Positions 28,079 through 61,800 of a stretch of DNA of 64,000 nucleotides are shown piece by piece. The notes under the pieces are model-generated. The model had not been told where the DNA came from, searched no databases, and saw only the letters and a program-made list of their open reading frames with translations. The position numbers and the translations under genes were made by a program. Positions within the stretch are counted from its first letter, which is position 1; every line of letters starts with the position of its first letter. The stretch covers positions 1-64,000 of the forward strand of contig JAUCBJ010004415.1 in the NCBI GenBank assembly GCA_032718475.1, in the 5' to 3' direction. This stretch comes from Nemertoderma westbladi (Eukaryota; Animalia; Xenacoelomorpha).

Positions 28079-28759
28079 CCGCTCCATGAAAACAGGATAT
28101 TATCGTGCATAAAATATACGGTTTTCACCAATAATCAATCAAACTATAAAATACTTAGGGCGTACTTACATATTTACAATTAAGTTTCAAACAATACTTC
28201 CTTTCTACGTAATGATTCGATACAAAAATAATTACAAATTCAAACTTTACGTATTTATGGCTTTACTAAGTAAGTACAATATAAATCTAAATTAAATTCA
28301 CCAATGTAAATCTATTGCATCTCAGATATTGCATAAATTCAAACAATTACAAATACAAATAAATGAAAACAATAAGAAAGGCTCGCAAGTCTTCCATCTA
28401 CTATTGTATCTCAAATATTGCATAAATTCAAGTAATTACAAATACTTTCGTACCTAAATGTAGATTGCATAAGTTTGGAATAATTACAAATATGAGTCTT
28501 TCTGAGCACAAAATTTTCTGTCTATAAAACTTTCTCTTTAGGTACAAATACTGCTTATAAAATATAAGTTCCTTCTAAACTTTCTAAATTTCACAAATTC
28601 GGAACAATACAAATTGCATAAGTTTGGAATAAGCACAAATATAAAATATAAGTTTTACTAAATATAAATCTTACTAAATATAAGTCTTTACTTAAATATA
28701 AATATAAACTGCATAAGTTTAGAATAATATAAACCTTTGCATCTCAAACATGAAACATA

Positions 28760-29934: not shown

Positions 29935-30109
29935 AATCTTTCAAATATAAGTTCCTTCTAAACTTTCTAAATTTCATAAATTCGGAACAATACAAATTGC
30001 ATAAGTTTGGAATAAGCAAAAACTTTCTAAATATAAAACATATAATTCAAATAAATCACAAATCATAAGAAAGGCCCACGAGTCTTCCGTCCACCCTTGC
30101 CCTCCCCTT

Positions 30110-31324: not shown

Positions 31325-32471
31325 CTGGGTCTATGGGTTGGTAGGTTTCTGAAGGTTGTATACAAACTATAGCATCTGTTGCTTCAAGTTGTCGAATCTC
31401 CGTCTGAGATTTCTTCGGGAGGTTCCTTTCTATCTCAAGAAGTTCCTCTAAAGGATCGTCGGCGATCGTAGTAGTTACGTTGAAATCATCACCGAGGTGA
31501 CCGATAGGCGCGCGCGTCTGCCGTGATTCATCCGTAATTTCCACAATACGTTCTCCTTCATAGGGTAACAATGTAAACATAGATGGTCTTTCGATAAGAG
31601 ATCCCGCACAGCGAAGATACACGTCTCGAAATATACTAAATCCTGCTCGAGTAAAGGCATTACTGTCTTTGCGAGCTTCACTGTACTTTCTGATAATTCC
31701 TTTATACCAAATATAGTGTAGTCTTTTGCTCCAAATCGTTCGAATGAAGCTGCCGCCTCCTCTGGGATATCATATCCCCATCTCGGCTCTCTTTGTATCC
31801 CTTTCTCCATAATTAGAGGTGTAGTTACATAATCATTACTACTAGAGGGAATACAACAGAGTTTGTGGTTAGTTGTGAGGAGACGTGAGAGTTTCGTCTG
31901 CCTTTTGGGCTTCGACAACGCTCTAACCTCCTACCCATAGCCTAAGATCTAAGGTTTCTTTAATGACACGCTGCTTCTTATCTAAAATTTTTTGCCGAAA
32001 TAAAAAACGAATTTGGGCTAAACTGGCCGTGAGTCTAAAATACTCACCTTTTGATCCCAAACTATTATCAGAAAATAAGCAGTCAAGAATTAGTAATAAA
32101 TATAGGGGAGTCTATTTTGACGTAACTTATTGAAACAAGACCGTGTAAAATTTAATTAAAATTTTAAGAAAGGCTCGCAAGTCTTCCTCTCTTGTTTCTC
32201 TAATTTTAAGTTCCACCCGACTGTACCCTGAAATCTATTCACTGGAGAAATTTTTTAAAAATTTTTCAAATCCAAATGGATTGTCTAAAATTTCGAAAAT
32301 GTCTCAATATTGTGAGTTCCAAGTAGAATTCCATTTCTTATACCTACAAATCCCGCTCCTATGTGACACATAAGGGTACTACCCTCAATGTTCACATATA
32401 AAGACAATGGAATTCTACCGCTGTCCTTACTACGGTGTACAGGTACGTGGAATCTATTTGTAAACTCCTAA

Positions 32472-38400: not shown

Positions 38401-39377
38401 TCCATCTCGGCTGCTTCCAACTCGGCTTGTTCTTGCAGGAGGGAGATTCTTGCTATATTTGTAACGCGTAGCTTCTCTTCTTCTACTGCTGCTTGTAGCA
38501 TTAGAAGTTGAGTTTGTTCCTCCATCTCCTGTTGTTGTCTGCAGAGCTGTTGTTGTCGAGCAGTTTCTGACGTAGCCATACTCACCTCGCCAATTTCGCT
38601 GCGAATACTCACCAGAGATTGATCTAGTATTCCCGGTGCCGATTCGATTCGTACGGGTGAAGTTTCCCTCGTATATTCCGGCACGGTTTCCAAATCGCCG
38701 ACGTCTTCGCCGCACATACGTAAGTGGTCCGTCAGATGTTTCAATTGTCCATCCAGTCGGTACAGTTCCTGTTCTTCCTCGGGCTGTAATAATTCGTCCG
38801 AAACTGACTCACCTAACAACTGGTCCGCTTGTTCCTGTTGTATCTGTCTAATCGTCGACTTAAACTGAATCAGTTTCTCTCTAGTGATCATTAGTTTCTC
38901 GAGGATTCTAAGTTGAGTATCCATGTCCTGTCTCTGTCTAGCTAGATCTTGTAGGCCAACTAGATTATCTACGGACTTATATACTTTACTCTGTACTCTA
39001 ACCTGGAGGGTGTAGAACTCGAATCGAGACATCGGAGCGGTCAACCCGTCTAATATGCGTTGGCCTTCTCCAATACTCCTGGTTATATGCGCCATGTAAC
39101 CTCCGACGCTTCTAACCACACTTTCCTGGCTTCCTGCTGAACTTACCATGTCCGTTTCCCTGTATCTAGGTTGCGGAACAGTTAGAAAGTCCTCGGTCCT
39201 GCCGTCGCCTCGTACTACGGCATCCGGTACTCCCGTTGGATGTACTGGTGACGCGCACGGTGTAGGTTCGGTAGGCTCGCGAGTCTTCCCCTGTTGTTCT
39301 TCCGCTGCTGACTTATCCGCGTCACATGAGTCATAGTCGGTTTGTGTATTCTTCGTATAGTCTTGTTTGTCACTCAT
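32472..39377 (-). CDS. Element D Gag-protease-integrase polyprotein (one in-frame TGA at 36540-36542)
   Basis: ORFs 36540-39377 and 32472-36533 are in one frame. Contains a BEL capsid (PKFSG..LSGEPK), three Cys/His knuckles, PR ILDSASSHSY, and IN H2C2 plus GIDCFGP/SDQGTNF/GGVWERL. No RT or RNase H motifs. Confidence 0.88.
37274..37597 (-). repeat. 84-bp in-frame tandem repeat (~4 copies) in D gag
   Basis: PFNQFTSQSTTSRKTCEPTEQRRTVETR repeated. Confidence 0.92.
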
Positions 39378-40186
39378 TTCGGTAGTTGTAAGTCAAGTGA
39401 AGTGAGTGTCAAAGTATCGAGTTTACCGTATTTGTATAAGACGGTACTAATTACAGTCATATAAAATTAGCCTACCGGCCGATTTTATAGCAGATGGATA
39501 AAATTAGCCTAAACGGCCAATTTTACAGCAAATAAATGTCACGGAATAAGTATATAATAAAATTAGCCTAGCGGCCAATTTTATAACAAATAAATCGGAT
39601 AACGATATGCGTTATCAAAAGGTAAATTAAATACAATAATACGGACTAATTCAGCAATGAACAAAGAAATCATACGGAATGCATAAATACTTGAGACAGT
39701 GGAACCCACAATAATTTTAACTAATACGGTAATGCCTAACTTATTTATGCAACTTTTCAAACTCACCCACTCCAATAATTCTCCAGAAAAACAGATTCCC
39801 AGATACAAACCGAACGTGAACCTTTCCGTTTTTAACGTTGCGGACGAAACGCGATTTTCCCAACCAAAGTTGTTGAGTTATCTATCTCCCAAACTTGCTA
39901 AACACGGTCTTGCTCACGTTACAGCCTAGAAATGAGTTCTGAATCCTGAAAAAACAAAAGAGTTAGGTTTTACTTTACGAAAATTTTGTACCGGTACAAT
40001 ATGGTATTTAAACCCTTTTAAACACCGGTATTTAATTCCAAAAATAATTTTACACGCGGTTCAAATCAAATTTTATTTCAAAAAATTAGCACTTAGCTAA
40101 TCAAATATAAATTTTTACCTCAAAATACAAAATTTTCAAATAACTTTAGTCCTACCGAACCGTAGTTCAGTAAAACATATTCCTAC

Positions 40187-42114
40187 TAAATTGGAGAGAT
40201 ACGCCTATTCCTACTATCGGAAGAGACGGTAACAATACCTGCAATATCCTACTGTAAAGTTTGTAAATCAAATCATAAATCCGACCTTCTCACCAAAACA
40301 GTAAACCCCAAGTAAGCGAATATATTGCAGTATCGATCTCTTTTAACCGGTGAGGCAGAAAACAGTCTACGAGCAGACAAACTTCGATAAAACAAATCCC
40401 GCGCAGCGAATCCTAAAATCAGGCTGACTCACTGACGGACTAAGAGGCTCGTATACTTTGCCGCGGTGTGATTTATATGGTTGGGCAAAGGGACGCTAGC
40501 TAGGTATAGAGCAGATTTGGAGATGGCTAACTAGCGAGCAAAGTGCAGTAAGGACGAAAGTTAATTTTATATATTTCGAGGTGTAAATAATTTCTAACGC
40601 GCGTGTGTTAATTCTGAACGGTCAAAGCAGTTTTGCTCCTTCACATATATAATTACTGGGTACGGTGTGCATTTTACGAATATTCTAATTTTATAACTTG
40701 TAGGTCCAATACTCACGAATGATAAGGTTCCTTCCCCTCTTGCGTATTTCCAGGACTCAAATTCAGGCATAAGGTTAATACTACGCCCAGAATTCGGCAA
40801 TTTTAGGTACCAGGTCCCTGATACTAAGAAGAGATGTGTTAGTTTACTACTGTAGGCGTACGGGTACTAATAGCTATCCTGGCTCCTATCTAGAATTTTA
40901 GTCACCCAGGTAGTCCGGGTAACTTCCTATTAGGGCGTTGGCGGGGACACGGTAGATGTTAGTATATCCCTGATAGCCTCAATTTATTTGCGCCTAGCGT
41001 AAACTGCCCTACCGCCCGAACGGTACAATCCCAATTCAGGTGAAAACACAGCAACCCCTTAGCCTACAAGTTCTGATGTAACGGACACCGTTGTACGGCA
41101 AATAGTCGCACACACACCTGTACTTAGCAAGAGTTAAGCGTACAGTTTGCTGCACCCTAACCAATGTGTATGCCTTGTACCGGTGTGCCTACGTCCTATC
41201 TGCGTACTAGTATCTGCTCTCTCTCCCTCCCCCCCCCCCGTAGGAATATGAAGGTCTACTGCGGTTTTCCCTGAATCAAGACAGTACAGTCCCTATGATG
41301 TAATTTTGGGCTCACAGCGTGTCACTACGTCTACCTTTGATCTTTTGGTCTTACACTTAGGTAGCAAGGATCGAACGCTGTCTAACCTTTCAGGCGATGG
41401 GCGAATAACACTAGATGGTATTGCGGGTTGTCTCTCGTCTACATTCCCGTGATGTTCCCGTTCATTGCTGCGGCCCGATCTCTAGCCGGCCATCCTGTCC
41501 CTGGGTTTGTTCACCGTAGTGAAACCATATTAAAACAGATAGAAAAGGGCTGAGATGTGACTAGTATTTCTGACTTTTATTACAAAAGATATAATAACTA
41601 TTATACAATAAACAATGTAATCTGAAATAAGACAGAAAGTGAATGATGGATTGAGAGATTGAGAGTAGATTAGATAACTAATGAACGAATCGCACCTTTA
41701 TATACTAAATTTGTGCTGCAATCAATCGAGAAAATTCTCGATTGTTCTATAGGTTCTAACAAGGTTTTAAAGATAGCTTATTGGTCCAGCTAATATATAA
41801 CTTGCACGACATTGGTTACAATCAAATAACTACAGCCTTATTGGTACAGACAAATGCAATTAATTTGTAGCGGTTAATTTAAATGAGTTGAAATTCTGCA
41901 CAAAAAATAATTCGCACTTACTAGGATTCGAACTCGATACCTACTACACATATAATTTCCAACGCTCTACCAACTGAGCTACTGAACCACTTGACCGATA
42001 GATACACAATAGATAGAACCAATACTAATGAGAACTTAAAGCAATCTTTACAAAGTTAATCCGAATAAAATAAAATTTTGAAAATCCACGGCATTTAGGG
42101 AATATAATTCTATA
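40187..42114 (-). repeat. Element D 5' LTR
   Basis: 1928 bp. Candidate TATA GTATATAAAGG near 41700 and AATAAA near 41578 and 40985 (sense strand). Confidence 0.93.
41902..41988 (-). promoter_or_regulatory. tRNA-derived Pol III-type unit in the D 5' LTR
   Basis: Identical to 27866-27952. Confidence 0.7.
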
Positions 42115-44332: not shown

Positions 44333-44556
44333 AATAATATAATCACGCAAAATAATTTAATTAATTTGGAAAATGACAGTGATGGTGGTGCTATTAATAT
44401 AAACGCGGCAAGCTAAGGAGGCCCGGCAAATGAAGGCCTGGTAGGCCATGTAGTTAGTAGGCAGGAAGGGGCAGGGTTGAGTCAACCCAAAGAGGGCCTG
44501 GTAGGCCACGTAGTTAGTAGGCAGGAAGTGGCGGGGTTGAGTCAACCCAAAGAAGG

Positions 44557-45823
44557 TGTACGCGCTTTTGAAGACCTTTAGCAGTTTAACCTGCCAAAAT
44601 TTATATGTCTTTTGGTTTATAAATAGACTTTAGAAGATGACAAATATTTAATACCAATAAACACAACATTAGCAGAAGCCAGCCTAGTGCGCGTCCATTC
44701 ACCCGCTGGATATACCCGGGAGACTGGATTCTGAGGGCTTAGATTATTATTGCAGTGTAAGCTTACTGGATTGTATTATTCGATTGATCGTTAATAATTA
44801 ATTTCTGACTAATATTATTTACTTTCGGGAAATATTAACAGTTCCTTTAGGACGTGGCGCTCTATCTAGGTAAACAGAGATATGACTTATACTAATCACA
44901 ACGGTAAGTCGGTAAGGCTTATGATTCACGTATGAGGCGCATTCTTTAGGAAATGCTTAGTTATCAGTCACAATCAGGCACACTACCGGTAACACACAAT
45001 ACTGCCCACTAATTTGCCGACCGTCAATGATTTTTATCATATATAAAGAGAACAGCAACGGACCAATGTAGTGCTTATCAAATAGCATTAAATTCACTAC
45101 ATACACAATAATATAAGTCGCAATCGCTATATATATAACCCGTCTCTCTAACCTGTAGTGTATCAAGAAAATTGGGAAATTTGGGTTCTTTATATATGTT
45201 CTCCAAATAATATTCAACCAAAACACAACAGTAAACAGCATTAAGACGGTAGGTTAAGATATGATATGACAATATATGACAAGATATGCACTGATTGTTT
45301 TGTTATGATATGATAACAGTTATACGCTCTATAATTTAAGCCTACTAATGTTTCTTCTAAAGTATGAAAACGAGTTGACTCTAGAGCCGTTGTTCCTGGC
45401 CTAGATAGCAACAACAACAAAGTATCAAGTAAAAAACAGTAAGACTGAACACTCCTAGTATGATCGGCCGAAAGCTCCACATCGACAGAAAAAATCGCTC
45501 TGATTGGCTTAAGCTAAACAAAGAACCATGTGGCCAATGGCTGTTTCCATGTCAGCAACCAGCTGTTAGATCTCGTAATATGAATCATCACGGCTAAGCT
45601 GTGAAAGTTATTTGGTGCATTGCAGGTTTTTTGCCTTACCATGTCCGCCAAAACACGTATATAGCAGAATGACTTTTATGTCCGTTAAAACACCTATAAC
45701 GGTACCTTGCGGGCGAGGGGAATATATATACAGTTAGAGAACCTTTTAGAGTATTCCAGCGCCTGGGGGGGAAACTGGATTGCGAAGCAAAAGGGCCAGT
45801 TATATCCCACAGAAGCGTTTACA
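44557..45823 (-). repeat. Element E 3' LTR
   Basis: Direct repeat of 60529-61795, preceded (sense) by the PPT-like GGGAGCGG. Confidence 0.95.
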
Positions 45824-45901
45824 CCGCTCCCAGAAAATGGGATTTGAGTCTATAAAATATACAAAATCACAGTTTCTAATATACGTAAATACTCTAAACA
45901 G

Positions 45902-46795
45902 TTAGTCTTTCTTGCGCGGACGGCGTTTACGCAGTTTCTTAAAGCTAGCCAGAGTCCTTTTCTCTTTGGGGCGAGCCACTTTACAAAGAGGGCTATAACT
46001 CCTGGGTGAGGGGTGCAATATGATTGCATCAGAGGGTGTAGGATTATGGTCGGTGTATCCGCCAGTCGAAGTACCGGGTTGATTGACATCAACGTCCGGG
46101 GAGAGGGGTCTAACGGCTTTGAGAGCTCGTTTCAAGACAGCCGCTCTTACGGGTCCTTTACGAGTGGTCTGAACGAGGGCTGTGGGTGGACCATAGGCAG
46201 TTAGAAACCTCCGGGGTTTAATGGTCCTTTCCAACTCGCGTTCGCGGGCTCGGTATTCGTAAGGCCGTCGATATACTTCCTGTAACTCGGGGTGTGAGTT
46301 AACAAACAAGTCTCCATAGTCCGGATCCTGACGGATATAATTGATTAAGTTATAGGAATGAAGGTCGCTAGGATTAACACTCCTGAGAAATTTGCGTACG
46401 AATTTGGTTGAAATACATTCTCCAACGCGCTTCAGTAGCTCGTAACTTGATAGGCGTGATTTCTGTTCAACCGAAGCGAATAGATAAGGATGGAACGCAT
46501 AAACTCCTTCGTAAGCGCGTCCGGGATAATAGCGATGGCGAGAATCACAATGTAAATCAGCGTTCGCTTCCCAAGCTCTGATGTAACGTAGTGTGATCAT
46601 TTCATCTACGCTTTCCAAATCGTGATTAAAAGGGCAATCGAAACTGGCATGTCCCTTTAGTTGACAATGGTGACATTGAGTCATAAATTGAGGGCAAACC
46701 GCAAAAATGTGCAAGTTATTGAGTCTGCAATATGCACAATAAATTTCCATCACCGGTTGTTCGTGGAAATAGGAACAGCGGACGTTTGTGTCCAT
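45902..46795 (-). CDS. Element E accessory 3' ORF, CCHC zinc-knuckle protein
   Basis: CAYCRLNNLHIFAVC, CHHCQLKGHASFDC, a WE..AD.H...R..P.RA..G block shared with the D ORF, and a basic tail KKLRKRRPRKK. Confidence 0.72.
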   Translation of the reverse strand: MDTNVRCSYFHEQPVMEIYCAYCRLNNLHIFAVCPQFMTQCHHCQLKGHASFDCPFNHDLESVDEMITLRYIRAWEANADLHCDSRHRYYPGRAYEGVYAFHPYLFASVEQKSRLSSYELLKRVGECISTKFVRKFLRSVNPSDLHSYNLINYIRQDPDYGDLFVNSHPELQEVYRRPYEYRARERELERTIKPRRFLTAYGPPTALVQTTRKGPVRAAVLKRALKAVRPLSPDVDVNQPGTSTGGYTDHNPTPSDAIILHPSPRSYSPLCKVARPKEKRTLASFKKLRKRRPRKKD

Positions 46796-46951
46796 GGGCG
46801 TAACATGGTCTCTCGATGCGCATACCCGACAACGTTGCCGAGAAACATAGTTGGCATGGCGATAATTGTACGCAGTGAGACACTGTGGACCTTGATACCA
46901 TTCTAGGATGTAATCGTTGTCGCTGTTCCGGGCGCGATAGGCTGAATCTCC

Positions 46952-47350
46952 TCAGATTCTAGGCATATTGGTTCGTCTTCCCAGTCTGTTACGAATAGAA
47001 TTTTCGTGATCTATTCTCGGTTTACCGTTATGACTCCGCTGGGTATGATATTTAAATAGAACCATTTCCCTTTCGGTGTCTACATCGTCCGTATCATGTA
47101 AATCGATAGGATGGCCGGTAGTTAGGAAGTCCATATACATACTATTACGATGCGTATAGCGAGCGGTGAATTTTCGATAGTCCAATTCACGCGTAAGTTG
47201 CTCTTGGGACATCGGCGGTTCGATATAACGACCATCGTCCTCCGTAATGGTTGGATCGGTTTCACCGCGTATCAAGCTATCCACAAATGCTTGTAAAGGT
47301 AGAGTATATCGCTCCCTGATACCAAGATCATCTTCTATCAACTCCGTCAT
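46952..47350 (-). CDS. Small ORF upstream of the E accessory ORF (unknown, possibly its N-terminal part)
   Basis: 132-aa ATG ORF in the same position as the D ORFs at 31248-31918. No recognisable motif. Confidence 0.35.
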   Translation of the reverse strand: MTELIEDDLGIRERYTLPLQAFVDSLIRGETDPTITEDDGRYIEPPMSQEQLTRELDYRKFTARYTHRNSMYMDFLTTGHPIDLHDTDDVDTEREMVLFKYHTQRSHNGKPRIDHENSIRNRLGRRTNMPRI

Positions 47351-48977
47351 ATCTGCTATCTGAGTTTATTAATATCGAAATGAGTTTATGTTTAGGCGAG
47401 CGGACGTCGCTGCCTACCTCTCTTTGCCCCCGGACAGTGGGATTCTCAGCGCCGATGTACCGTCGTCGCGGTGTTTACGCCAACATGTAGCAACAGCACG
47501 ACAACGATAACCGGCACAAGTCACTCCACTGTCCGTCCCAAAGGCTTGAATCCACTTTAGGTTCTTTCTATAGGAGAGTTGGGCTACTTTCACAATTGCG
47601 ACTAGCTACTGTAAACACACCTTAGCAGTAACATTCACCTATAAACGCACAAATTCCACACAACTGTCACCAATTGTACACATACAGGCCATTTGTCCGT
47701 TAGTCAGTGCCTTCCAGAATGTCACGTTATTACTGTGTATCTTTGGATACTAACAGTGTGCTATGTATTCTCTATGCTATGCAATGAGACAAGCTTTCTA
47801 TTGCTCTTTTAACTTGCTTCTAATTCTAGCGTGGGTGTTGCTATGGTGACATTATGGAATGCTAGCGGTAGAATTAGGGTAATTCTCATGCATACAGATC
47901 TGGGATGCTATTTAATAATAATTCTTTAATTGTCAATATCCTCTTTATGCATGATTTTATTAATTTTATCGGCTATTGACTATATGTTGGAGATTCTCGC
48001 ACTCTAATACGCTCAATAGGATGAATCTCCGCTCCCATGATCTATTAATTAATGGAATTTTTGGGAATGTTATAAATTGCACAAAACGACAATTTATAAA
48101 ATTCATTTAAATATGAATTTAAATTTATTCCCATGAATTTTATTATTTGATGTTAAAATTGACACAATTTTTTATTCCAGAGCATGTCTGGGGACATAGG
48201 ATCCTTAATTCTATAAAATTGTCTTTTAAGAGTATCGGTAAGTGCTGCGATATCTTAATTGACTAGAAATTGTTAACGGATCTGAATTTTTACAGATTTT
48301 ACTAAATATTAAATTAATATTTAAGATGGGCACCGATCTATTCCAGAACTTGTCTGGTGACGTTAACCACTGATTCTAGAATTTGTCTTTCAAGTATATC
48401 GGTGGGTGCCGCGATATCTTAATCGACTAGAATTACAGATGGTCAAAAAGTTTAACAGATTTATTTGCGTTTTACGCTACTGTTAGAGGGACATCACGCT
48501 ACTATATGTATTATTTAATATAAGGTAGAAGAGCAATATCGCACGAAGCAATGTCAGTGTGAAGAGGCAAGTCGTTTCCAAGGTCTACCCAGAGCTTGGC
48601 TTAGCCGAGACACGAGGATCTGAACTTTGCATTCCTAATACTCTGCCTACCAATAATACTTGAATATAGTAGTGGCTTTATTGTACTTTAAGAAGTACGG
48701 ACATTTCATCTTACTGTAGTCACGTATTTATAATATGATACGGACAGTAAGGAAAGAGAAGAAATTATTTCTCGCCGTCGCACTAAATATATTATAAGTA
48801 ATTACGTACGTAATAAACACTAATATATTGCACTAATCTACTAAATAATCACTAAAATAACATTCTACTAAATAAAATTGAATAAAAACGATTATAATAA
48901 AGTACATAATAAAGTTCGCATATAAAAATATAACAAAATAGATAAAATCATATAGTCATACACCCACTCCAGACGTA

Positions 48978-51900
48978 TTACGTGGGGGAGTCCCTAGATG
49001 TTTGAAGAATTAGGGAGGTGGTCGTGGGAAGAGTGTCTTGCCTTCCATAGTTCCCGGAGAGTTCTCTGTCTCTTTCCAGTAAACATAAACGACCAACTGG
49101 GCGATTGAGTTATTGCGTCTCAAAGATTATGCCTGGCTTCTTGAAATTACGCCGCATGACGATGAGTTCTACCGAGCGTACTAAACCATCATCTGAGATG
49201 TGGGTCTTGATGATACGACCTGTCTGCCACCGTTTACGTGGGAGGTCTGGATCTACAATAAGCACCATATCTCCGGCGCTGACGTTTTCTTGCTGCGCAA
49301 ACCACTTAGTTCGAAGTTGTAGCGTGGGCAGATAATGTTTCTCGAAATGGTCAGCGAAACGACGGGATAGCAACTGCATAAGTTGCCAAGTTCGACGGCA
49401 GTATTCGTCTCCGTCGGCAATCTCCGATCGTGGGAGCATGGCTACAGGTTTCTTCAGTAGGAAGTGCGCGGGTGTTAGCGCTTCTAGGGAATCGGGACTC
49501 GATGAGACTGGCATAAGAGGTCTCTCGTTGAGATAGGCAGCGATTTCCTCCATTAATGTCCGCAAAAGTTCGTCGGTGAGATACGCGCGGCATGGCACTA
49601 TAAAGTGAAATGCGGTTTTGACACTTCGAATTAATCTCTCACAACTTCCTCCCCACCAAGGGGCGTCGGCAGCGTTGAAGGTCCAGCTAGACGCTGTTAT
49701 CCTTAGCTGGTCGTCCACCTGTCTTTGGTTCCAGTCCTTCACGTAAGCCTGTATCTCGTTGTTGGCACCTATGAAGTTCGTTCCTTTATCCGATCTCATG
49801 GTATTACTCGTCCCGAAGCGAGCGATCTGTCATCGTAAACTTAAGACGAAGCTGTTGGTAGATAGATCGTTCACCATATCGAGATGGATGGCTCTACAAG
49901 TCATGCACACGAAGATGACACACCATCTCTTGACTATAGTCCTCGCACGATATACTTCAATAGGGCCAAATAAATCTACACCAGTATTAGTAAAAGGTGG
50001 TTCATAGAAGCTTACTCGTTCCCTAGGTAATTCTGCCTCTCGCTGTGTTAAAGGCCTACTGAATGCTTTCCTACAGGGTATGCAGTTCCTAAGAACTTGG
50101 TTCAGAGCTCTACGGGGTTTATCAAAATAATAGCGAGTTCGAATTTCGCTAAGAATTCGTTCTCTACCAGCATGATAAAGTTTACCGTGAACGTCTACAA
50201 TCATCTTGATTTGTACTTCAAGATTTCTAATAAGTATGGGGAATTTGGTGTCAAAGGATAAGGGCGCATTGGTGAGTCTTCCTCCAACACGTATTAACCC
50301 ATCTATCATTGTGCTCGAGAATCGATCCCTTAAGCGCATCTGCGGATTTCTCAACAACAGGAAATACTTTTCGGAATCCTCATAGCATTGCAGGAGTCTC
50401 AGTATCTGCTTATTTGTTTCTTCATGCTCCTGGTGACTAATTTTCTCCTTTAGAAAACGATCAGATGTCTTATATTTGGGTAAATTTTTAATGACATGAA
50501 CTTGTGCAGATGTCAATGGAGCGGTATCACTAGTGGTCTTCGTCCTGGAGTAGTGATGATGAAAACATCGTCTTAAATATGTGACGGCTTTACAGAGCCG
50601 ATTCCAGGAACTATAATGATGCATTGCTCTCTGCAGCATGGGTGAGATTCCTTGCGAGACGTCTGGTATTCCAGATTTCCAATCTCTATCTCTAATTTCC
50701 ACAACAGACTTATTTGTGTTGAGGGATTGTGGATCCGAAGCATCATTCCCGGAAGTATGTAATACAGATAGATCGATAGTCGGTTTAAACAACTTCGATT
50801 TACTCGCCCGGGTTTTAGGTTTGACTGTCTCCGCTCCCTTGGCTTGTCTAATCTCTGCCGTAGTAAGGTGAGGAGGCCATTCATCCTCTTCCTTGCTCAG
50901 GAAGTCGGGTCCACCCAACCAATCTGGAGTATCTATCAGTTCCTGTGGAGTTGCTCCCCTGGAGGCGATATCGGCTGGATTAATCGTACCAGGGCAATGT
51001 CTCCATTGATCTATCTTTGTGCGACTAAGAATAATAGCTACTCTGTTAGTAACAAAAACGCTGAACTGACAGACTTCATTGGTTAGATACTCCAACACGA
51101 GTAAAGCGTCGGTCCAATAAACCGTTTTCTCCAGTGGATAGTCGATTTGTTCCGTTACGTTCCGGCCGATGGCTGTAGCGTATAAAGCCGCCTTTAACTC
51201 CGCTCGAGGAACCTTTAACTTGTTGTTAATCAATGCCTTAGAGGTAACCAAGGCGACTTTGATTCCATCCGGGGTTTCGACTCGCAGATATGCTACTATA
51301 CCTATTCCCATGTCGCTGGCGTCTCCAAACACATGGAGTTGATAGGAATACGTAGGAAGAACATGGCCAAAATAGGTACGGGAAATTATAAAGTTCTCGA
51401 TGGCAGGTAGAGAATCTTCCCATTTCATCCATTTCTTTAACAATTCTCCCTTAAGCGGATCGTCCCATGAGTGGTTTTCAAGCCACATTTGTTGTACTAA
51501 ACTCCGAGCAATCAATATGACTGGGCTAATAAATCCCAATGGGTCGAAATAAGTGCTCAGGATACTTAAACAAATCCGTTTGGTCCGAACTGGATTATCT
51601 CGCTGTTTGAGCTGAAAAAACAGGATGTCTCTTTCAGTGTCCCACTTCAAGCCAAGCGTCTTGGTTTCAGGAAGATCGTCCTTTATTAAGTCTAGGTCTT
51701 TCGCTCCGCGGTCTTCTACTGGTATCGCTTCCAGAAACTCACGGGAGTTGCTGGTGAATTTCGTCAGTCGAAATCCACCTCTTTTCAAACACTCTACCGT
51801 TCCTTTCGCGACATCTATGGCTTCTTCTACTGATGGAAGGGACCTTAAATTGTCGTCCATGTATATATTCCGTTTGATGTTGTCTATCACCTCTTTTGAG

Positions 51901-54900
51901 AAGGAGTCTCGGTTGTCATTCGCAGTGGTTCGCACCACGGAGCAGGCGTTGGAAGGGCTTGATATGATTCCAAAGGCCTGGATGGTCCGCTTGCGTCCTT
52001 CTGGGCTCCTCCCTGAGGCGCACCCACGAGGCGGACGCTGTCCCACCACCCTTGGGGCCAGTCTGACTCCGTTTTTATCAGACCGGGCCGGAGGGTAGCC
52101 CGATGCTTCCCGGGTTCAATTTTCAATCCCCCGATCACACCGGCACAGCTCGTCGGTGTAGCCAGATGGTTGGCTACTGTCAACTTACTGTGGCCTGACT
52201 GTACATTGAGCCAACTCCGAGAGTCAACCGGCGGGTGGACCAGTCGATAACGATCGAGCATCAAGGTCGCCCTTGAGCCAAAGCGACGGTCTTGTCCCAA
52301 GTAGGCTTGCGCTACCTAACATGGAATATTGACCGTTTTCACCCGCCTCGCCGGCAGTATTGAGGGGAAGTCGGTTCCGCAAACAATACTGACTAGCTCG
52401 AAAGCTAGGAACAAGTAACCACTTACCAGTCACTGTACACGTGTACTCAATAGATGCTCACGAAATCAAGTACACAACGGTAAACACAAAATCTGACGCA
52501 TACCATGCACACACAGAGGACATAATCGGCAATGGACAAAATCGGTGACAAATCAGAGGGGACAAAATTGTATCGACTAATAAAGAGTCGAGAGTACTTT
52601 ATTTTACCGACAGGGTAAAATAACTTTGTGTGCACAAAGTATGCTGGGGCGCAGTAAAGATATGGTCCTACTAATAACCAGCGGCGACTGAACCAACCGG
52701 TAAGGGTTCCCATACCCACTCGCAGTAGCCATACATACACTCACGTATACCACGTACACACACAAACCACAGATTCCAGAGTATCATTCACTCGGACCAC
52801 ACTACAACACCAACCCCTCCTTGCAGCCGATATTCCGCGTGCCACCTCCATTCCAATAGTAGTACCAACAGAATCATCAGGAACCTGTCCATTCCGATGC
52901 AACACCTCCATTCCAATAGTGCTACCCTGGGAAAAGACACGTTTTGGCAACCGATTGGAGACAGTAAAGAGTCTGGTCAACTCATACATACCACACATAG
53001 ACCTACCACATAGACCACATAAACCACAGATCACACTAAGCCACCACCCCTACTGTGTACAGGACTGGCAGTACGGCAACAGGCCGACTAGGCGATACCA
53101 CGGCACCATGTTGATTCATGGTTCGCAAGACACGAGGGCCTTCAGTAACTCCCCTGCACTATAGAATAGATTTAACGTGCCCCCAGACCCTCACGAGTCC
53201 GCCGCCGCCTGTTCTGGACACCCCTATAGAGACCTCACCTCCTTGGGTATCCAGTATTCTACCGGTTTCTGATTGAGGTCTCCTTCAGGCCACCACAGAA
53301 ATCTCAGGATGTCTCTATCTCTATCCAGCGCCTTGACTTGTAAGAACATTCCCTCTATATCTGAGGCGAACGCGATGGAATATTGTCTTAATCTTAAAAG
53401 TATTCCCAACAAAAATTGGAGCAAGTTGGGTCCTGGTAACAACTCGGAATTGAGGGATTGGCCCATATATAGCGCAGAGCCATCGAATACGACTCGGACT
53501 TCATGAGGTTTACCGGGTTTGGGAACGTAATGATGTGTTAAGTAATACGTTCTCTCAGTCACTGGTGTTCCTTCCGGTACTCGCTCCGCGTATCCCTTTG
53601 TTATAAATTTCTTCAGCTGAGTTTGGTACATTTCTTTAGCTGAAGTATTAGCTGTAAGGCGTCGATGTAATTGAGCGATTCTTTTCTCTGCCAAGGGTCT
53701 GTTATTTATAAATCTAGGTTCTCGTTTTCGAAATGGTAGGCCGATTTCATATCTACCTTGATCCTTTAAAAAACGTGTAGTTGTTTCCTGGATTTGCTTG
53801 GCTCTTTCTTCTTCTATCGATAGAGCCTTATCATATGAATTGGGCTCTACCAGTTCCTGAGTAAAGAATCGTACGGCTAGTTCGTCCCGAGTTCTAGCGT
53901 TGTAGCGCTCTATCTCATCGTTGAGTTCGTCATTGTAAGCGATGGGTTCCGATGGGCGAATCCGTTGACATAGGTTCACCTGATTTTTCCAAGTTTGGTT
54001 TTCTGTAAGTAAGTCGATTGTGTTCTCTTCATCGAAGAGTTGGTAGATGTCGTCATTATCTGAGGAGTATGATGTTCCCTCAGTTAGTTCGTCCACTTCA
54101 CTGCTCTCCACTTCCCAATCGTTTACTTGGTATGTTTGTTCTTGTGGCATTCTCTCTTCGAGAGTCCTGCGGGAAGGGCCAGTAAAGTACCAACCTACTC
54201 TAGTTCTTACCGCATAGGTTTGCAGTGGCTGTGGTTGAGCAGGCCGTTTCTCCAATGTTTCGAGCGCCTCATGCGCGTTCTGGCCGATGAGTATTTGCAC
54301 TCCAGGATAATCTGTCTGGAATCGAGGTATCTTAAGATGTTGGATGCTCTCATCCTCGTCCCAATTATAAAGGTCTGCTTGAGTAGTAGCGAAGTTCTTT
54401 ATAGCCACCATTTTTACTGACCTTATACCTTGTGCTCCTAACTTATCCTGGGGGGTGGACAATACACCTACATAGTAATCTGCCGTTAGGGTAGATTTCC
54501 AAACCTGCATAATTCCTGACATATTCAATTTAGTCCGGAACTTGGGTTGTCCAGCAAAGATATCTTCGGCTAGTTCTTGATCGATGAATGTTCCTGTGCT
54601 GCCGGAGTCAAGGAGGGCGTTCACTATGTAACTTTTGTTAAGACCGTGAACTCTTACCTGCACAACAGGAAATTCTCTGATTCCTACATTGGAAGTTGGA
54701 GCTTTCCAAGATGGTTGTTTGGCAAAAGTAGTTGGGGGAAACTCATCGTTGGTGTCCTTTTCATAAGTAAGTGCTCGATACACTGCGGTATTGATTAGAT
54801 AACAGGATTCGTTGGCGTCGGAGAATTCATCAGTATAGAATCCTTCCATCTCAGATTCTTGATCAGTGTCGTTTACATCACTGAATTGGACATGTAGTTC

Positions 54901-57900
54901 GGGCTCACTTACCTGACTCTGTTTGTCTCGTTCGAACTCACTGTGTAACAAGATGTGATGTTTCGCGCCACACTTTGCACACTTTATATCGGAGTAACAG
55001 GTTCGCAGTTGGTGTCCTGGTCTGAGGCAATTATAGCATAACCGCTTGTCCCACACGACTGCACGTCTGTCTACAAGGGATTTCTTTAGAAATTCAGCAC
55101 ACGCACTCAAACGGTGGGTCCCGTCGCACAACACACAGTTAGGTTTTATGTTACTCACTTTACCTTGGGTAACTTGATGCACTCTCGTTTTTTCTTCGGG
55201 TTTTCTTCGGTGCATTCTGTTAGGAGACTGAGGAGGAGTCTTGACAACCTGTTCTCTCCTATCATTGTTTCGAGCCTTGTATTTACTTACATCCTTTGAG
55301 GTTTTTTCAACGTAGTAAGATCTCTCAGTGTCTTTCCCGCTGTCCTCTTCTTGAGAAGCTTGGCTTTCGCCATCGTCAGTGTAACACACCGGTGTTACTC
55401 TTCTCCTAGAAGCGAGTTTCTCACTTACCTTATTTTCCGATGTTTTCTCTCTGGACTGCTTGATGAGTTGTAGTTTTACTTCACCATCTAAGAAGGACAT
55501 GAGATCAGCCATGGTAGGGCTTCGTCGTTGCTGTTCATTCATATACAACACTTTCTTGTCCCAGCGTGTACATACTCCACCCTTTGGTAAAGTAGAAACT
55601 ACGGCTCCAATAACCATGGAACTCTGATATTCATGAGACTTACCTAACCAGTCCAATTGTCTACAGATTTCCTGAATCTCATCGGAAAACTCTATAATCC
55701 CGCTACTAAGGAAGTGTCGGGGGGCTACTAATTTTGCATACAAATACTTAGCTATGTTATCCTTATTACCATACCTGATGTTTAATGTATCCCATACTTG
55801 TCTTAATCCTTCTGGATGTCCAATAAACTTTAATGCCATTAACCTGGGAGGTCCTTCCAAGCACTTGATGAGGAACCTAAGTTTCTCTCCGTTAGATAGT
55901 ACAGAGTTTTGTATGCTATCTTTGTAATATTCGTTGAAAGGTAACCATTTCATCTCATCTCCATTGAATTTGACGATCTCTCCCACTTTGACCGCTTGGC
56001 GGGCTTCTGTTCTAGCCATCTGACGCGTAAAGCTTTCTTGGGCCATCGTGTTATTTAATATCGAATTATCAGTATATAAATTTCTCGGGTCATTGTCAGG
56101 TCTATAGGGGATATCGTTAATAACAGGTCTATAATCACCCTTAATAGGGTTTGCTATAGGAGTTTCTACTTCACTAGCAGTATAGATGCGTGTAGGCTCC
56201 ACACCTTGCGCATGTAATACTTCAGACCTAACAGGTTGACACAATTTTACAGGGGGTATTGGTATCCCCTTTTGGATATTGACTAATTTGTCGCGTTCTA
56301 GTGCAATACTTTGCTGCACTTCTTGCAACTCTGCTCTACCTTCCCTTACTGTTCCCTTAAGTTGGTGGACAGTCTCCTGCATCTGTCCGAGCAGGAGATT
56401 CATCCCCCGCCGTCCCTCCTCTACCCACTCGACCGCCGAAGCGGGAGTCGCCAACATTGTAGCGGGCTGACGTGGGACGACGGGAGACAAATCTTTGATT
56501 TCTCTCTCAGCTTCCAGGACAGGAATATTCTCATGGACTGTTCTACCGGGTACAGGCAGTGTAGTACTGTGTAAAGGGAACTTAGAGTTAAGCTCTGGAA
56601 GTACAGGGGTCTCTAGCACAGGTGTGACTTTGGGAACGACAGGCCTAATTATTTCAGGCTCATCAACTATTGTAGGGAGTCTTTTGACCTGAATAGTTTG
56701 GTATGTGGGTTCCGTACTACCTAAGTCTGCGCTAGCTAGCTGTCTTCTAACAGCTGGGGGCAAATCAGGCAATTTGTGACGGTGAGATGTTTTTCTAAGC
56801 CTGCTTAGACGAGATCTATTTCCTCCGCCTTCAGGATCGGTGGTTTCGCTTTCCTCCGATGATGTGTATCCTTGGCGTTTGGGAATAGATCGTCTCATCA
56901 TCTGCATTTGACTAGCAGTTAACTGTTTATTTATGTTGTCTTGCGTCTCTTGCAGATTTTCCAACTCCAGTTGGGTAGTCTGCTCAGACGCTCTCCGTTC
57001 TGCTTCTGCCACTGCCCTTTCCGCCTTTGCTTCTGCCGCCGCTGCCTTTCTTTCTGCTTCTGCTTCTGCCGCCGCTGCCTTTCTTTCTGCTTCTGCTTCT
57101 GCCGTAGCCGCCGCCTTTTGTTCCTCTATCCGTCTTTTCTTTACTTTTTCTTCTTGGACTCTAGCGAGGCGGAGTTTTTCATCAAATTCTGCTTGGTTAG
57201 CAGCTAACATTTCAGCATCGATTGAGTCTAACACACGCTGGGTTCCTTCACTATTGGGGGAAAGTCCAGACAGCCGTCTCCTCAACTCTTCGTCTCCTAG
57301 GAATCGCTGATAGTCGGACAGATAAATGTCTATGGCGTCTCTCGTTCGTGGTTTCTCTGAGGTCTCTTCGCCTTCCACTTGAGAAAGGGTGGCATCGGTT
57401 GGTTCTTCATAAGTTAGTCTCTCAGACAGCTGGGATTTCCACTGGTCCGTTTTTTGCACTTTGAGACCTACCCGCTGGAACCAAGTCTTAACAGAAACCT
57501 GCAGCAACGTGTCCTGTCTTCTTTTGGAAGTTTCCTCAAAGGCTGATAGGATTAGTCGAATGCGTAGGGTTCTTTCGCGTACTTGATATAGCAGTTCTTC
57601 CTGCTCTTGAGGTCCTTGGGGTTGTCGAAACAGTTGTTCTTCTAATCGCTCTAAGGAGCCGAAGAATCCCTGCACATATCCTGCTGCCGACCTCTTCCAA
57701 ACAGCTGGATCCATCGTATCTTTAGCCACTCCCATCCTGTGTATATCTTCCCAAGTAGCCTCGGACAGATCTAACGGGAGTCCGGGTCCGGGAAAGTTCC
57801 ATTGTGACTCGACAATAGACATCAATTCTTCCCTGGCGTATCCCGCATAATTATCTTGGGTCGCTCGCTTATTTCTCGCCCAGTCGGCTTGATGTTCCTC

Positions 57901-58293
57901 CACCGCAATCAATATAGTAGCTAGCACTGCGGCAGGAAGGGTGAGAAGGGGGTCCGAGTAGGCTTTAGCCGTCATCTGTAATCCGCGTTCGGGGGTCAGC
58001 TCGACAGTATCCGAACCACTGGAACTATCGGATCGCTGGGAACAAGTTTCTTGACTAGGCTGTTGCTGCTGTGGGACAGCTGCTTCCTGGTTTCGTTTGA
58101 CTTGGGCCCGAGTGCCGATGATAGACCTACGGTGTTGGATTAGCTTAGGGTCTGATACCACTACCGGAGGGATGACCTTTCTTTCAGTAGGAGGTGAGCT
58201 GAACTCCTTTCTTAATCGCTCCACACTCCTATCTGTGTCACAGATGGTTGTATCGATTAGACTGTCTGACAGGTTTTGCTGAGTGTCAGACAT
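48978..58293 (-). CDS. Element E Gag-Pol polyprotein interrupted by a group I intron, with nonsense codons at 49830-49832 and 49110-49112
   Basis: Gag knuckles, PR LLDSGSTGTF, RT ASDIEGMF / (spliced) EYWMTIQAFG..SSP / YMDD, RH FGDAS..RAELKAA..WTD, and IN GVDLFGP, SDKGTNF, GGSCERL. Confidence 0.9.
51988..53248 (-). ncRNA. Group I intron inside the reverse transcriptase of element E
   Basis: Removal rejoins AT|G to restore the frame and the RT motif. P1 CUGGAU|ACCC paired with GGGUGUCCAG, P3 GGCGGGUG/CACCCGCC, P4 ACGGUC/GACCGU, P7 U(C)GACUG/CAGUCA, P8, and a terminal G. Confidence 0.92.
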
Positions 58294-59619
58294 GTTTAGC
58301 TATACAGTTGAATGCTTACTGCTATAGTTACAGTTAAAGCAAGTCTAGCAATTCAGTATGACCGTTGGCCTAGTACCGGTAATTTATTACAGTATATTAG
58401 AATACCGGTATACACTTATAGTATATATAAGTATTGTAAACTAGGTTTGTCACAGAGTACCGGTATATAATTTTAGCACAAATATATATAAATATATAAT
58501 AGGCCTATCGTGAATACCGGTATACAGCTTACACTTATAGTATATATAAGTATAATTATGAACTAGAATTAATTACAGAATACCGGTATGATTTCCGCTC
58601 AAATTTATAGAAATAAATATAATAAGCCTATGGTAAATACCGGTATGTCAATTATTTTAGAATAATTGAATTTCTGAATATTTTAGGGTTACTTGGTTAC
58701 TTTAACTTACTTTGTTACCGTTATTTAAGCAGTAGTCCAACTGATATTGAGACCTAGTTGTTGTATGGCAGGCCTACTATTTATAAATCTTTTGAGTTGA
58801 TTTATAATATTTATATACCCGTTTAAAAGGGGTTTTGTCAATATTTGAAATAAATGTTATTATTTCTGGGGGAGTCACTACACAGAAGCTGTGCGCTCTC
58901 AGTGAAGTGCTATTTATTGGACACTAAAACAGATAATTCTAATTTACCTAAGTTACTTAATACTACAAATTACTTACGATACGGGTGAGATTAATTCTCT
59001 AATTAAACACAACAAAATATTACGTACGAAATTTTTTAGGGTAATTTTACAGGAAGTCTACAAACCAGTCTAACAAAGGGTTAGATTTCTGATTATTACA
59101 ACGGACAGGGTACTACGGTTTTTGAAATAATAAGTAGTAGTAAATATATTGCACTGTCCAGATAGGAAGATACCACCGCCTGACAACCTATAACCGTATC
59201 GCTATAGGTACTACGTTATGTATCACGGAGTGTTCCTACCTAGAAGTTAATTACCGCGGACTACCAGATCCAGCGTGCCTATTAACCACTTTACAACACA
59301 AATATACTGCCTACACACTAATTACCTCGGAAAGCACTGTACACTAAACCCTAAATTAGGTACAAGTACTGGTACAACAAATAATCAGTAGTTAAATATA
59401 CTTGAACAGTTAAAAGAACCACGGCATCTGCTGGAGTGACCGGTGCACAAAATCACCAGTCTTGTCCTACGCCAAGCAGCCCGTGTAGTACCGGGGTTAA
59501 TTTAACTATAACGGTATGTGTAACAAACACAATTACTGTAGGAATAAACTTGGGGACATGAATGTTGCGAATAATCGCATAAACTCTGAATAATAAATAT
59601 TACGCTACCCGTACAGAAT

Positions 59620-60470
59620 ACTCAAACAAAATACAAACCAAACGCTGGCAGACTACCACCAAGCCTAAATAAACTACTGTATGTGCAGATTCCAAAACGG
59701 TTAGTTAGTATGCGTTCTAACACAGTAGTACGACTTATTCTTTAAGAGGGGATTGACCTTACAGCTATGGCTGCCCCAACTTACTAACTGGCACTTTATC
59801 AGACAAACTCTACACACGCAGCAATCTCTTCAGACCTAATAATAGCTAGACAACAATCCAGCCTACAAAATATCTGAGTAATAACTATTACGGTACCTGA
59901 ACAGACCACACAAACAAACACAGGCCAAAACGCTGGCAGAATACTGTCAAGCCTAAATAAACTACAGTATGTGCAGATTCCAAAATTGTTAGTTAGTATG
60001 CGTTCTAACACGGTAGTACGACTTATTCTTTAAGAGGGGATTGACCTTACAGCTATGGCTGCCCCAACTTACTAACTGGCACTCTATCGGACAAACTCTA
60101 CACACGCCGTAATCTCTCCAAACCCAACAACAATCTAACAACAGTCCGGCCTACAATTATCTGAACAATCTGAGCAGACTTACACGTCTTCAGCTCAATA
60201 TTAACTTACATGTAAATAAAACCGACAGAAATAAGTAAAATCTCAATAAAAAATCAGGGCTGCAGTCCCTGATTAAATACTAAGACCTACCGGTATACAA
60301 TAATCAAAATCGAATAATACTAATGTACTTATACTGGAAGTACCGGTTAGGACAGTTGGGCCTACGGACCTACAGAAGTACCGGTTCTGACAGTTGGACC
60401 TACGGACCTACAGCAGTACCGGTTCTGGCAGTTGGGCCTACTGACCTACAGAAGTACCGGTTCAGGTTTA
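59620..60470. repeat. Tandem duplications in the element E 5' leader (~290 bp x2, 38 bp x3)
   Basis: CAAAACGCTGGCAGA.. at ~59638 and ~59926, and GAAGTACCGGTT..CCTACA units at 60337-60460. Confidence 0.85.
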
Positions 60471-60528
60471 CCGGTTGACCGGTACTTTCAACTTTATTGC
60501 TTACTGCAATAAAGTCAATAACTGTTAT

Positions 60529-61795
60529 TGTACGCGCTTTTGAAGACCTTTAGCAGTTTAACCTGCCAAAATTTATATGTCTTTTGGTTTATAAATAGAC
60601 TTTAGAAGATGACAAATATTTAATACCAATAAACACAACATTAGCAGAAGCCAGCCTAGTGCGCGTCCATTCACCCGCTGGATATACCCGGGAGACTGGA
60701 TTCTGAGGGCTTAGATTATTATTGCAGTGTAAGCTTACTGTATTGTATTATTCGATTGATCGTTAATAATTAATTTCTGACTAATATTATTTACTTTCGG
60801 GAAATATTAACAGTTCCTTTAGGACGTGGCGCTCTATCTAGGTAAACAGAGATATGACTTATACTAATCACAACGGTAAGTCGGTAAGGCTTATGATTCA
60901 CGTATGAGGCGCATTCTTTAGGAAATGCTTAGTTATCAGTCACAATCAGGCACACTACCGGTAACACACAATACTGCCCACTAATTTGCCGACCGTCAAT
61001 GATTTTTATCATATATAAAGAGAACAGCAACGGACCAATGTAGTGCTTATCAAATAGCATTAAATTCACTACATACACAATAATATAAGTCGCAATCGCT
61101 ATATATATAACCCGTCTCTCTAACCTGTAGTGTATCAAGAAAATTGGGAAATTTGGGTTCTTTATATATGTTCTCCAAATAATATTCAACCAAAACACAA
61201 CAGTAAACAGCATTAAGACGGTAGGTTAAGATATGATATGACAAGATATGACAAGATATGCACTGATTGTTTTGTTATGATATGATAACAGTTATACGCT
61301 CTATAATTTAAGCCTACTAATGTTTCTTCTAAAGTATGAAAACGAGTTGACTCTAGAGCCGTTGTTCCTGGCCTAGATAGCAACAACAACAAAGTATCAA
61401 GTAAAAAACAGTAAGACTGAACACTCCTAGTATGATCGGCCGAAAGCTCCACATCGACAGAAAAAATCGCTCTGATTGGCTTAAGCTAAACAAAGAACCA
61501 TGTGGCCAATGGCTGTTTCCATGTCAGCAACCAGCTGTTAGATGTCGTAATATGAATCATCACGGCTAAGCTGTGAAAGTTATTTGGTGCATTGCAGGTT
61601 TTTTGCCTTACCATGTCCGCCAAAACACGTATATAGCAGAATGACTTTTATGTCCGTTAAAACACCTATAACGGTACCTTGCGGGCGAGGGGAATATATA
61701 TACAGTTAGAGAACCTTTTAGAGTATTCCAGCGCCTGGGGGGGAAACTGGATTGCGAAGCAAAAGGGCCAGTTATATCCCACAGAAGCTTTTACA
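60529..61795 (-). repeat. Element E 5' LTR
   Basis: Direct repeat of 44557-45823. Confidence 0.95.
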
Positions 61796-61800
61796 GAAGG

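What the first reader, a model, noticed from the sequence alone, without database searches (positions are those of the whole stretch)
51988..53248. Group I self-splicing intron inside the RT gene of a nuclear BEL/Pao retrotransposon
Seen: a 1261-nt insert without a TSD splits RT. Joining 53249 to 51987 rebuilds an ATG and gives EYW-M-TIQAFGIISSP in frame, like the usual BEL EYRMT..FG..SSP. The 5' exon ends in U and the insert ends in G. CUGGAU|ACCC pairs 10/10 with GGGUGUCCAG (53223-53214), with the U.G wobble exactly at the splice site. The core is in canonical order: P3 (52347-52340 with 52237-52230), AAA, P4 ACGGUC/GACCGU, P5 with a GCAA loop, P6 UCAAGG-GCGA-CCUUGA, P7 U(C)GACUG/CAGUCA (G-binding site), P8, and a 7-nt J8/7 CAAUGUA. 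Established: nuclear group I introns are known essentially from rDNA of fungi, algae and protists, and in animals from mitochondria (hexacorals, sponges, placozoans). Inference: this is a ribozyme intron living inside an animal nuclear retroelement, which I do not know to have been described.
Basis: partly seen in the sequence, partly recalled or inferred. Interest (0 to 1): 0.96.

Follow-up and report, generated by a model that had tools for sequence, protein, structure and literature searches.

The report
Ribozyme intron parasitising animal retrotransposons
Two unrelated jumping genes in this animal chromosome each carry a copy of a group I intron related to those of giant DNA viruses, each with a short guide matched to its own landing site, so this predicted self-splicing RNA likely spreads by splicing itself into jumping-gene RNA and being copied into DNA with it, a route long proposed but not yet shown.

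Summary
Confirmed and extended. The 1,261-nt insert (53248-51988, minus strand) splits one codon of a BEL/Pao reverse transcriptase; relatives are continuous there (115 of 116), and public runs hold the exact empty site with no duplication. The copies are about 90% identical, but 4 of 5 guide positions differ, each matching its own 5' flank with U.G at the splice site. P3, P5a, P6a and P9 also change in compensating pairs. Rfam finds nothing, nor in 7 viral relatives. A model built from 39 giant-virus introns scores both copies at 101-104 bits, E about 1e-23. The nearest relatives sit in iridovirus-like capsid genes (about 70% core identity; tree node unresolved). No endonuclease ORF is present. 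Best reading: a virus-related group I ribozyme that reverse-splices into retroelement RNA and is fixed by retroelement reverse transcriptase. Splicing and mobility are inferred, not shown. Ten paper searches found no such case.

The parts
51988..53248 (-). Group I intron, copy A (1261 nt), in phase 2 of a codon of the BEL reverse transcriptase
53214..53254 (-). P1 of copy A: 53254-53245 pairs with 53214-53223; internal guide 53219-53214; U53249.G53219 at the 5' splice site
   Evidence: same position is the guide in 10 of 14 viral introns that share the P2-start motif
53083..53213 (-). P2 region, colinear with viral relatives
   Evidence: alignment A3; 179 of 199 identical A vs B over 53213-53015
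52357..53082 (-). Extra segment in the P2.1 region (about 650-700 nt more than in viral relatives); no shared ORF; divergent middle (53014-52758) and a conserved, hairpin-rich 3' part (346 of 382 identical) with repeated U-rich motifs; role unknown
52193..52356 (-). Catalytic core: P3 52347-52340/52237-52230, P4 52336-52331/52291-52286, P5, P6, P6a, P7 52247-52241/52201-52196 (G-site pair G52245-C52197), P8 52229-52209
51988..52195 (-). P9 domain: predicted P9.0 (52194-52193 with 51990-51989), P9, a P9.1-type hairpin shared with viral relatives, two further hairpins, terminal G at 51988
28760..29934 (-). Group I intron, copy B (1175 nt), same ends as A, in the non-coding 3' part of BEL element B; guide 29905-29900 pairs with its own flank 29940-29935
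44557..61795 (-). BEL/Pao element A: LTRs 60529-61795 and 44557-45823 (1263 of 1267 identical), 5-bp target duplication, gag-pol 58299-49110 broken by the intron and by one in-frame stop at 49830-49832
26052..42114 (-). BEL/Pao element B, a different family: LTRs 40187-42114 and 26052-28078 (no substitution in 1926 aligned bases, two gaps); no detectable RT or RNase H

Best explanation
The insert is a group I intron without an endonuclease gene, present at two unrelated sites in two BEL/Pao retrotransposon families and related to introns of giant DNA viruses; it is predicted to self-splice, and it likely spreads by reverse-splicing into retroelement RNA at sites that match its 6-nt guide and then being written into the chromosome by the retroelement's reverse transcriptase. 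Shown: the fold, exact ends, empty sites, two sense-oriented copies inside young LTR elements, site-matched guides, no ORF, viral relatives. Inferred: (1) forward splicing restores the RT frame, so the intron costs its host element little; (2) excised intron RNA reinserts at guide-matched sites in BEL RNA; (3) unspliced genomic RNA is packaged, reverse-transcribed and integrated, in trans for RT-less element B; (4) spliced RNA gives intron-free copies, so empty and filled copies coexist; (5) guide mutations open new sites; (6) the founder came from an invertebrate-infecting giant virus.
For: Two copies with the same ends at non-homologous sites, both in sense within an LTR-to-LTR transcript. 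Guide differs at 4 of 5 free positions against about 10% elsewhere (binomial 4.6e-4), all 4 compensated by the flank. Further guide variants: positions 53214 and 53216 differ in 10 contigs each in X1, 6 and 5 in X3, 1 in X4, with letters that neither A nor B has. Clean empty site, no duplication; 115 of 116 relatives are colinear across the break and 111 have Met there. Compensated pairs A vs B outside P1: P3 1, P5a 2, P6a 1, P9 domain 2 of 68 predicted pairs. Virus-only model 103.5 and 100.7 bits; in 39 viral cores 97.7% of cells pair, and P7's top pair occurs as four Watson-Crick types tied to the bulged base. No shared ORF in the insert. LTR pairs nearly identical, so both elements were copied through RNA recently. 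Reverse splicing is shown in vitro, in yeast and in E. coli, but genomic integration is not (PMC3679873, PMC8395846, passages).
Against: No splicing evidence: no run is on record as RNA, and the joined form stands in DNA runs, so it shows empty alleles only. Only two copies could be read whole; two of two in sense inside BEL elements is weak because these elements fill 33,302 of 64,000 bases (about 0.07 by chance). Each copy has one mismatch in P6, and B has an extra base in P4. Element A has a premature stop and B lacks RT, so neither is autonomous as it stands. The tree does not resolve a donor: A+B sit in an open polytomy. No convincing P10 was found for either copy (by inspection).
Confidence: 0.68

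Rival explanations
1. It is a real group I intron that moves at DNA level, IStron-like (single-strand transposase or endonuclease supplied in trans), and the guide adapts to the site afterwards or guides DNA targeting.
For: Insertions are exact and leave no duplication, as in IS200/IS605-type insertion (recalled). IStrons pair a group I intron with a transposase (PMC13521648, abstract in listing). In X4 the intron is covered more deeply than the A family, a weak hint of other hosts.
Against: No ORF; the flanks of A and B share no target motif beyond the last U; both copies are in sense in RNA-copied elements; copy B is in non-coding sequence, where later selection on the guide for the host's sake is hard to see.
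Confidence: 0.12
2. The intron reaches new sites with loose or no guide matching (for example by RT template switching), and the guide is then rewritten from the flank by fold-back copying of the P1 hairpin during reverse transcription.
For: The guide changes far faster than the rest (2 of 6 identical, against 28 of 29 in the adjacent P1 loop), and P1 is a long inverted repeat.
Against: The U.G wobble is kept in both copies, which copying would erase; exact ends at both sides are what splicing chemistry gives; site-matched guides are the norm in the viral family too.
Confidence: 0.1
3. It is a group I fossil: it once spliced, and is now carried passively by BEL elements, killing element A's RT.
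For: P6 mismatches, a large insertion, no RNA evidence, and both host elements are otherwise defective.
Against: No broken pair among the hand-defined P1, P3, P4, P5, P6a, P7 and P8 helices between copies about 10% apart; the G-site pair, U.G and terminal G are intact in both; the host LTRs are young.
Confidence: 0.08
4. Chance pairing in an ordinary insert, or an assembly chimera with viral DNA.
For: No Rfam hit.
Against: Virus-only model E about 1e-23; two diverged copies with covariation; intron-matching contigs in 3 DNA runs of 3 studies under one organism label; flanks are retroelement, not viral.
Confidence: 0.02

Closest known systems
Group I introns of giant DNA viruses (faustovirus capsid gene, PMC6247863 and PMC11814242; chlorovirus introns, PMC7019647; passages read) and the IMG/VR family found here
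   Same: Same core sequence family as the IMG/VR introns (68-72% core identity to those in iridovirus-like capsid genes), colinear P2 and P9.1 regions, guide at the same position; interrupts a protein-coding gene. Whether the published faustovirus or chlorovirus introns belong to this sequence family was not tested.
   Different: Host is a chromosomal LTR retrotransposon; about 650-700 extra nt in the P2.1 region and extra 3' hairpins; no endonuclease inside; one copy in non-coding sequence.
Nuclear rDNA group I introns, IC1 (Tetrahymena) and IE (Didymium) (PMC3679873, PMC8395846; passages)
   Same: Nuclear location, P1 with U.G, P3-P9 core, G-site in P7, terminal G; reverse splicing proposed as a route.
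   Different: Those are described as restricted to rDNA of microbial eukaryotes; this one is outside rDNA, in an animal, at unrelated sites. Subgroup not assigned.
IStrons (group I intron plus IS200/IS605 or IS607 transposon, bacteria; PMC13521648, abstract in listing)
   Same: A self-splicing intron that makes a mobile insertion harmless at RNA level and occupies varied sites.
   Different: IStrons encode their own transposase and nuclease and move as DNA; this element encodes nothing and sits inside another mobile element.
Group I introns in Polinton-like viruses of protist genomes (PMC12220804, passages)
   Same: Group I intron inside a mobile element resident in a nuclear genome, outside rDNA.
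   Different: DNA viruses of protists, Rfam-detected; not animals, not retroelements.
Retrozymes and Penelope hammerheads (PMC4209133, PMC5680766, PMC7761336; abstracts in listing)
   Same: Ribozymes tied to eukaryotic retroelements; retrozymes borrow LTR-element machinery.
   Different: Small self-cleaving ribozymes, not exon-ligating introns with a guide.
Putative group I 'spintrons' in rDNA spacers, reported for sharks (as cited in PMC8393795, passage)
   Same: The only claim of animal nuclear group I introns seen in the papers read.
   Different: rDNA spacer, putative; primary paper not seen.

Membership tests
Group I intron | U at the end of the 5' exon paired with G in P1 | tested here: met
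   Both copies
Group I intron | Terminal G and exact exon continuity at the empty site | tested here: met
   G at 51988 and 28760; exact empty site for A; B's empty site not seen
Group I intron | P3/P7 pseudoknot core with P4, P5, P6, P8 in canonical order | tested here: met
   one P6 mismatch per copy
Group I intron | G-binding G-C pair in P7 next to a bulged base | tested here: met
   G52245-C52197; invariant in 39 of 39 viral cores (partly fixed by the selection pattern); top pair covaries with the bulge; the rule itself is recalled
Group I intron | Match to Rfam RF00028 (operational, not defining) | tested here: not met
   also 0 of 7 viral loci; the model's weakness is described in PMC6125680
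Group I intron | Guanosine-dependent self-splicing | not testable with these tools
   Needs a bench test; no RNA run on record
Subgroup IE | Simple P5, expanded P2 and P9 regions | tested here: inconclusive
   P2 and P9 are expanded; P5 is short in many viral relatives but carries a P5a/b arm in the window copies
Subgroup IE | P element starting with GG and a C-G pair at R9/S10, as given in PMC3699495 | tested here: not met
   J3/4 is three A and the pair is A-U; numbering read from text only
Subgroup IE | P13 loop-loop pairing; match to a subtype model | tested here: inconclusive
   Only a 4-bp candidate, not kept in copy B (by inspection); no subtype models on hand
Mobile group I intron with homing endonuclease | Endonuclease ORF inside the intron | tested here: not met
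   Longest ATG ORFs 91 aa (A) and 126 aa (B), none shared in full; the 168-aa antisense frame has no Pfam hit
IStron | TnpA/TnpB genes within the intron | tested here: not met
BEL/Pao retrotransposon (host) | LTRs, target duplication, gag-PR-RT-RH-IN with DUF1759, Peptidase_A17, DUF5641 | tested here: met
   B lacks RT/RH

The most novel reading that the evidence does not exclude
A protein-free group I ribozyme from giant DNA viruses has become a multi-copy parasite of animal LTR retrotransposons: it self-splices out of their RNA, reverse-splices into new sites chosen by a fast-changing 6-nt guide, and is fixed in chromosomes by their reverse transcriptase. It would be the first self-splicing intron in an animal nuclear protein-coding sequence and a natural completion of the reverse-splicing route to genomic integration.
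Probability: 0.6. Interest if true: 0.96.

Novelty: new variant of a known kind. Interest (0 to 1): 0.91.

Why it matters
Reviews state that nuclear group I introns are confined to rDNA of microbial eukaryotes, and that reverse splicing followed by reverse transcription and integration has never been shown in full (PMC3679873, PMC8395846). Here a group I intron sits in an animal chromosome outside rDNA, inside elements that supply the missing reverse transcriptase and integrase, with a guide retargeted between copies only about 10% apart. That makes the old question testable with one genome and one test tube. It also points to gene flow from giant viruses to animal retroelements, shows a ribozyme family that Rfam misses, and offers a naturally retargeted guide system that may work in animal cells.

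Tried and rejected
Rfam scans: no group I hit in the window or in 7 viral loci. No whole genome is held, so copies could not be counted. Run search: no RNA holder listed; X5 is only guessed to be RNA and carries another organism label, so it is not used as evidence of expression. Read evidence for copy B's empty site was not obtained. Phage collection: 8 chance matches, none over 8% of the query. Metagenome scan with an animal-type pattern: 1 match (L020), rejected by the model. Prokaryote scan: 96 pattern matches; only L102, L128/L130 (two introns) and L191 score over 100 bits, the rest 31 or less; L102 and L128 look like giant-virus DNA in bins by their neighbouring frames (inference). The 80-bp repeats near copy B (29943-30022, 28560-28639) are not a target duplication: they lie 8 and 120 bp away within AT-rich repeats. 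My first P2 and P2.1 registers were mis-set and are disregarded. P10 and P13 not established. Summed contig depths are not used as copy numbers. The tree gave no supported donor. Three papers were not held, so subgroup criteria come from one secondary text. Supplements were not read; bioRxiv supplements are closed.

Full report
Observation. The insert runs from 53248 to 51988 on the minus strand (1261 nt). The upstream frame (58299-53224) has the BEL Gag domain DUF1759; the downstream frames have Peptidase_A17, the integrase zinc finger and DUF5641. The break splits one codon 2+1. Read through with X at the break and aligned to 120 BEL proteins (the named ones come from animals), 116 span the site, 115 without a gap, and 111 have Met there. 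In public runs the joint 51987->53249 skips exactly 1261 nt with no ambiguous letter in X1, X3 and X5; X4's joint table lacks it, though its contigs stop at both ends. X1 may be the window's own source. These are empty alleles in DNA, not proof of splicing.

A second copy. The window holds another copy at 29934-28760 with the same first and last base and unrelated flanks. It lies in sense in the non-coding 3' part of a second BEL element (26052-42114) that lacks RT and RNase H and shares only 42-47% integrase identity with element A. Both elements are young: A's LTRs match at 1263 of 1267, B's at 1926 of 1926 aligned bases. Identity between copies is 28/29 in the P1 loop, 179/199 in the P2 region, 149/164 in the core and 188/205 in P9, but 2/6 in the guide. 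All four changed guide bases are matched by the copy's own flank, and U.G is kept. Such a match occurs at 2.4e-4 of window positions, and four or more of five changes at 10% divergence has probability 4.6e-4. Compensated pairs also occur in P3 (1), P5a (2), P6a (1) and the P9 domain (2 of 68 predicted pairs). Contigs in X1, X3 and X4 show further guide letters at 53214 and 53216 (top rows only), so more variants exist; their flanks could not be read.

Relatives. Rfam finds nothing. A P7-J8/7 pattern found 19 IMG/VR loci, all 19 with a homologous core. A P4 pattern found 77 loci; together they give 54 distinct cores. I aligned 39 of the 54, leaving out near-duplicates and rows with long insertions or cut ends. 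On them 97.7% of cells pair; 6 of 8 P3 pairs and 6 of 7 P8 pairs change on both sides; every slid control stays under 50%. P7's top pair is C-G or G-C with bulged A (16, 3) and U-A or A-U with bulged C (13, 7), the rule I recall for group I introns. A model from these viral rows alone scores the window copies at 103.5 and 100.7 bits; the next match is 10.3. The selection patterns came from the window, so part of the score is built in; as a control, chance pattern matches in prokaryote loci score 31 bits or less and L020 not at all. The viral introns lie in or beside Capsid_NCLDV and DNA_pol_B genes; other neighbours look like RNA polymerase subunits (by eye). In 10 of the 14 viral introns that share the P2-start motif (of 55 examined; three of the ten are near-duplicates) the 6 nt before it pair fully with an exon ending in U.G, the same place as in A and B. 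The nearest cores (68-72%) are in capsid genes whose best solved match is 6ojn (recalled as an iridovirus capsid), but the tree leaves A+B in an open polytomy. A viral origin is therefore a lead, and the direction of transfer is not shown.

Differences from viral relatives. The distance from the P2 motif to P4 is 873 nt in A and 771 in B, against 155-229 in viruses. The extra segment has no shared ORF; its 3' part is as conserved as the core and folds into hairpins, with only 1 of 111 predicted pairs compensated, so its structure is weakly supported. It might carry a packaging or protein-binding signal (speculation). The 3' end has extra hairpins and a predicted 2-bp P9.0 before the terminal G.

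Mechanism. Shown: fold, ends, empty site, matched guides, sense orientation inside RNA-copied elements, no protein gene. Inferred: forward splicing restores RT; excised intron reverse-splices into BEL RNA where its guide fits; unspliced RNA is reverse-transcribed and integrated; spliced RNA yields empty copies. I put this at 0.68, and the group I identity alone at about 0.97. Against it: no RNA evidence, two readable copies only, one P6 mismatch per copy, both host elements otherwise defective. Rivals are DNA-level movement with a partner in trans (0.12), guide rewriting by hairpin copying (0.10), a dead passenger (0.08) and artefact (0.02).

Literature. Ten searches listed no group I intron in an LTR retrotransposon or in an animal nuclear gene; the library lacks most subscription papers, and most listed papers were seen only as title and abstract start. 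Passages read: PMC3679873 and PMC8395846 say nuclear group I introns are confined to rDNA of microbial eukaryotes and that integration after reverse splicing is unproven. PMC8393795 lists animal mitochondrial introns and cites putative rDNA-spacer introns in sharks. PMC12220804 reports group I introns in Polinton-like viruses of protists. PMC6247863, PMC11814242 and PMC7019647 cover giant-virus introns. PMC6125680 shows RF00028's limits. PMC3699495 gave IE criteria, which are only partly met, so no subgroup is assigned. PMC2864245 was irrelevant. Earlier scan notes describe the viral family but nothing like this element.

Verdict. A real group I intron family in animal BEL/Pao retrotransposons: a known ribozyme class in an unreported kind of host, likely with a mode of spread that has been proposed but not shown. 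Interest 0.91.

Noticed in passing
window 60528-60518 with 61295; 40186-40176 with 41250 (minus strand): Neither BEL element has a tRNA-type primer site; in both, the first 11 nt after the 5' LTR have an exact reverse complement inside the same LTR, a Tf1-like self-priming signature (the Tf1 comparison is recalled).
   Followed up: partly
window 45902-47365 and 30110-31930: Both BEL elements carry extra ORFs between integrase and the 3' LTR; the Cys/His-rich ones are homologous (27% over 182 aa, E 3e-19) and have no Pfam hit.
   Followed up: partly
window 26052-42114: Element B keeps gag, a protease-like motif and integrase but has no detectable RT/RNase H, yet has substitution-free LTRs: a recently copied non-autonomous BEL.
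   Followed up: partly
window 52569-52485 and 29343-29261: Four U-rich repeats resembling protein-binding sites in the intron's extra segment, kept in both copies.
   Followed up: no
L005 (two introns), L028:1260-1870, L001, L040/L041, L059: Viral contigs with several introns of this family close together; in L028 the guide does not fit a flank ending in U.
   Followed up: no
L004, L008: Intron sits in the YGDTD/S motif of a family B DNA polymerase.
   Followed up: partly
L102, L128/L130, L191: Bacterial genome bins hold introns of this family; L102 and L128 have giant-virus-like neighbours, probably misbinned viral contigs.
   Followed up: partly
window 2208-4040 and 15677-17542: Duplicated intronless BTB-BACK-Kelch gene in a 4.8-kb repeat (96% identical); the second copy has an in-frame stop.
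   Followed up: no
window 42623-44556 and 61796-64000: Element A appears inserted into a third, plus-strand repeat element with a long ORF.
   Followed up: no
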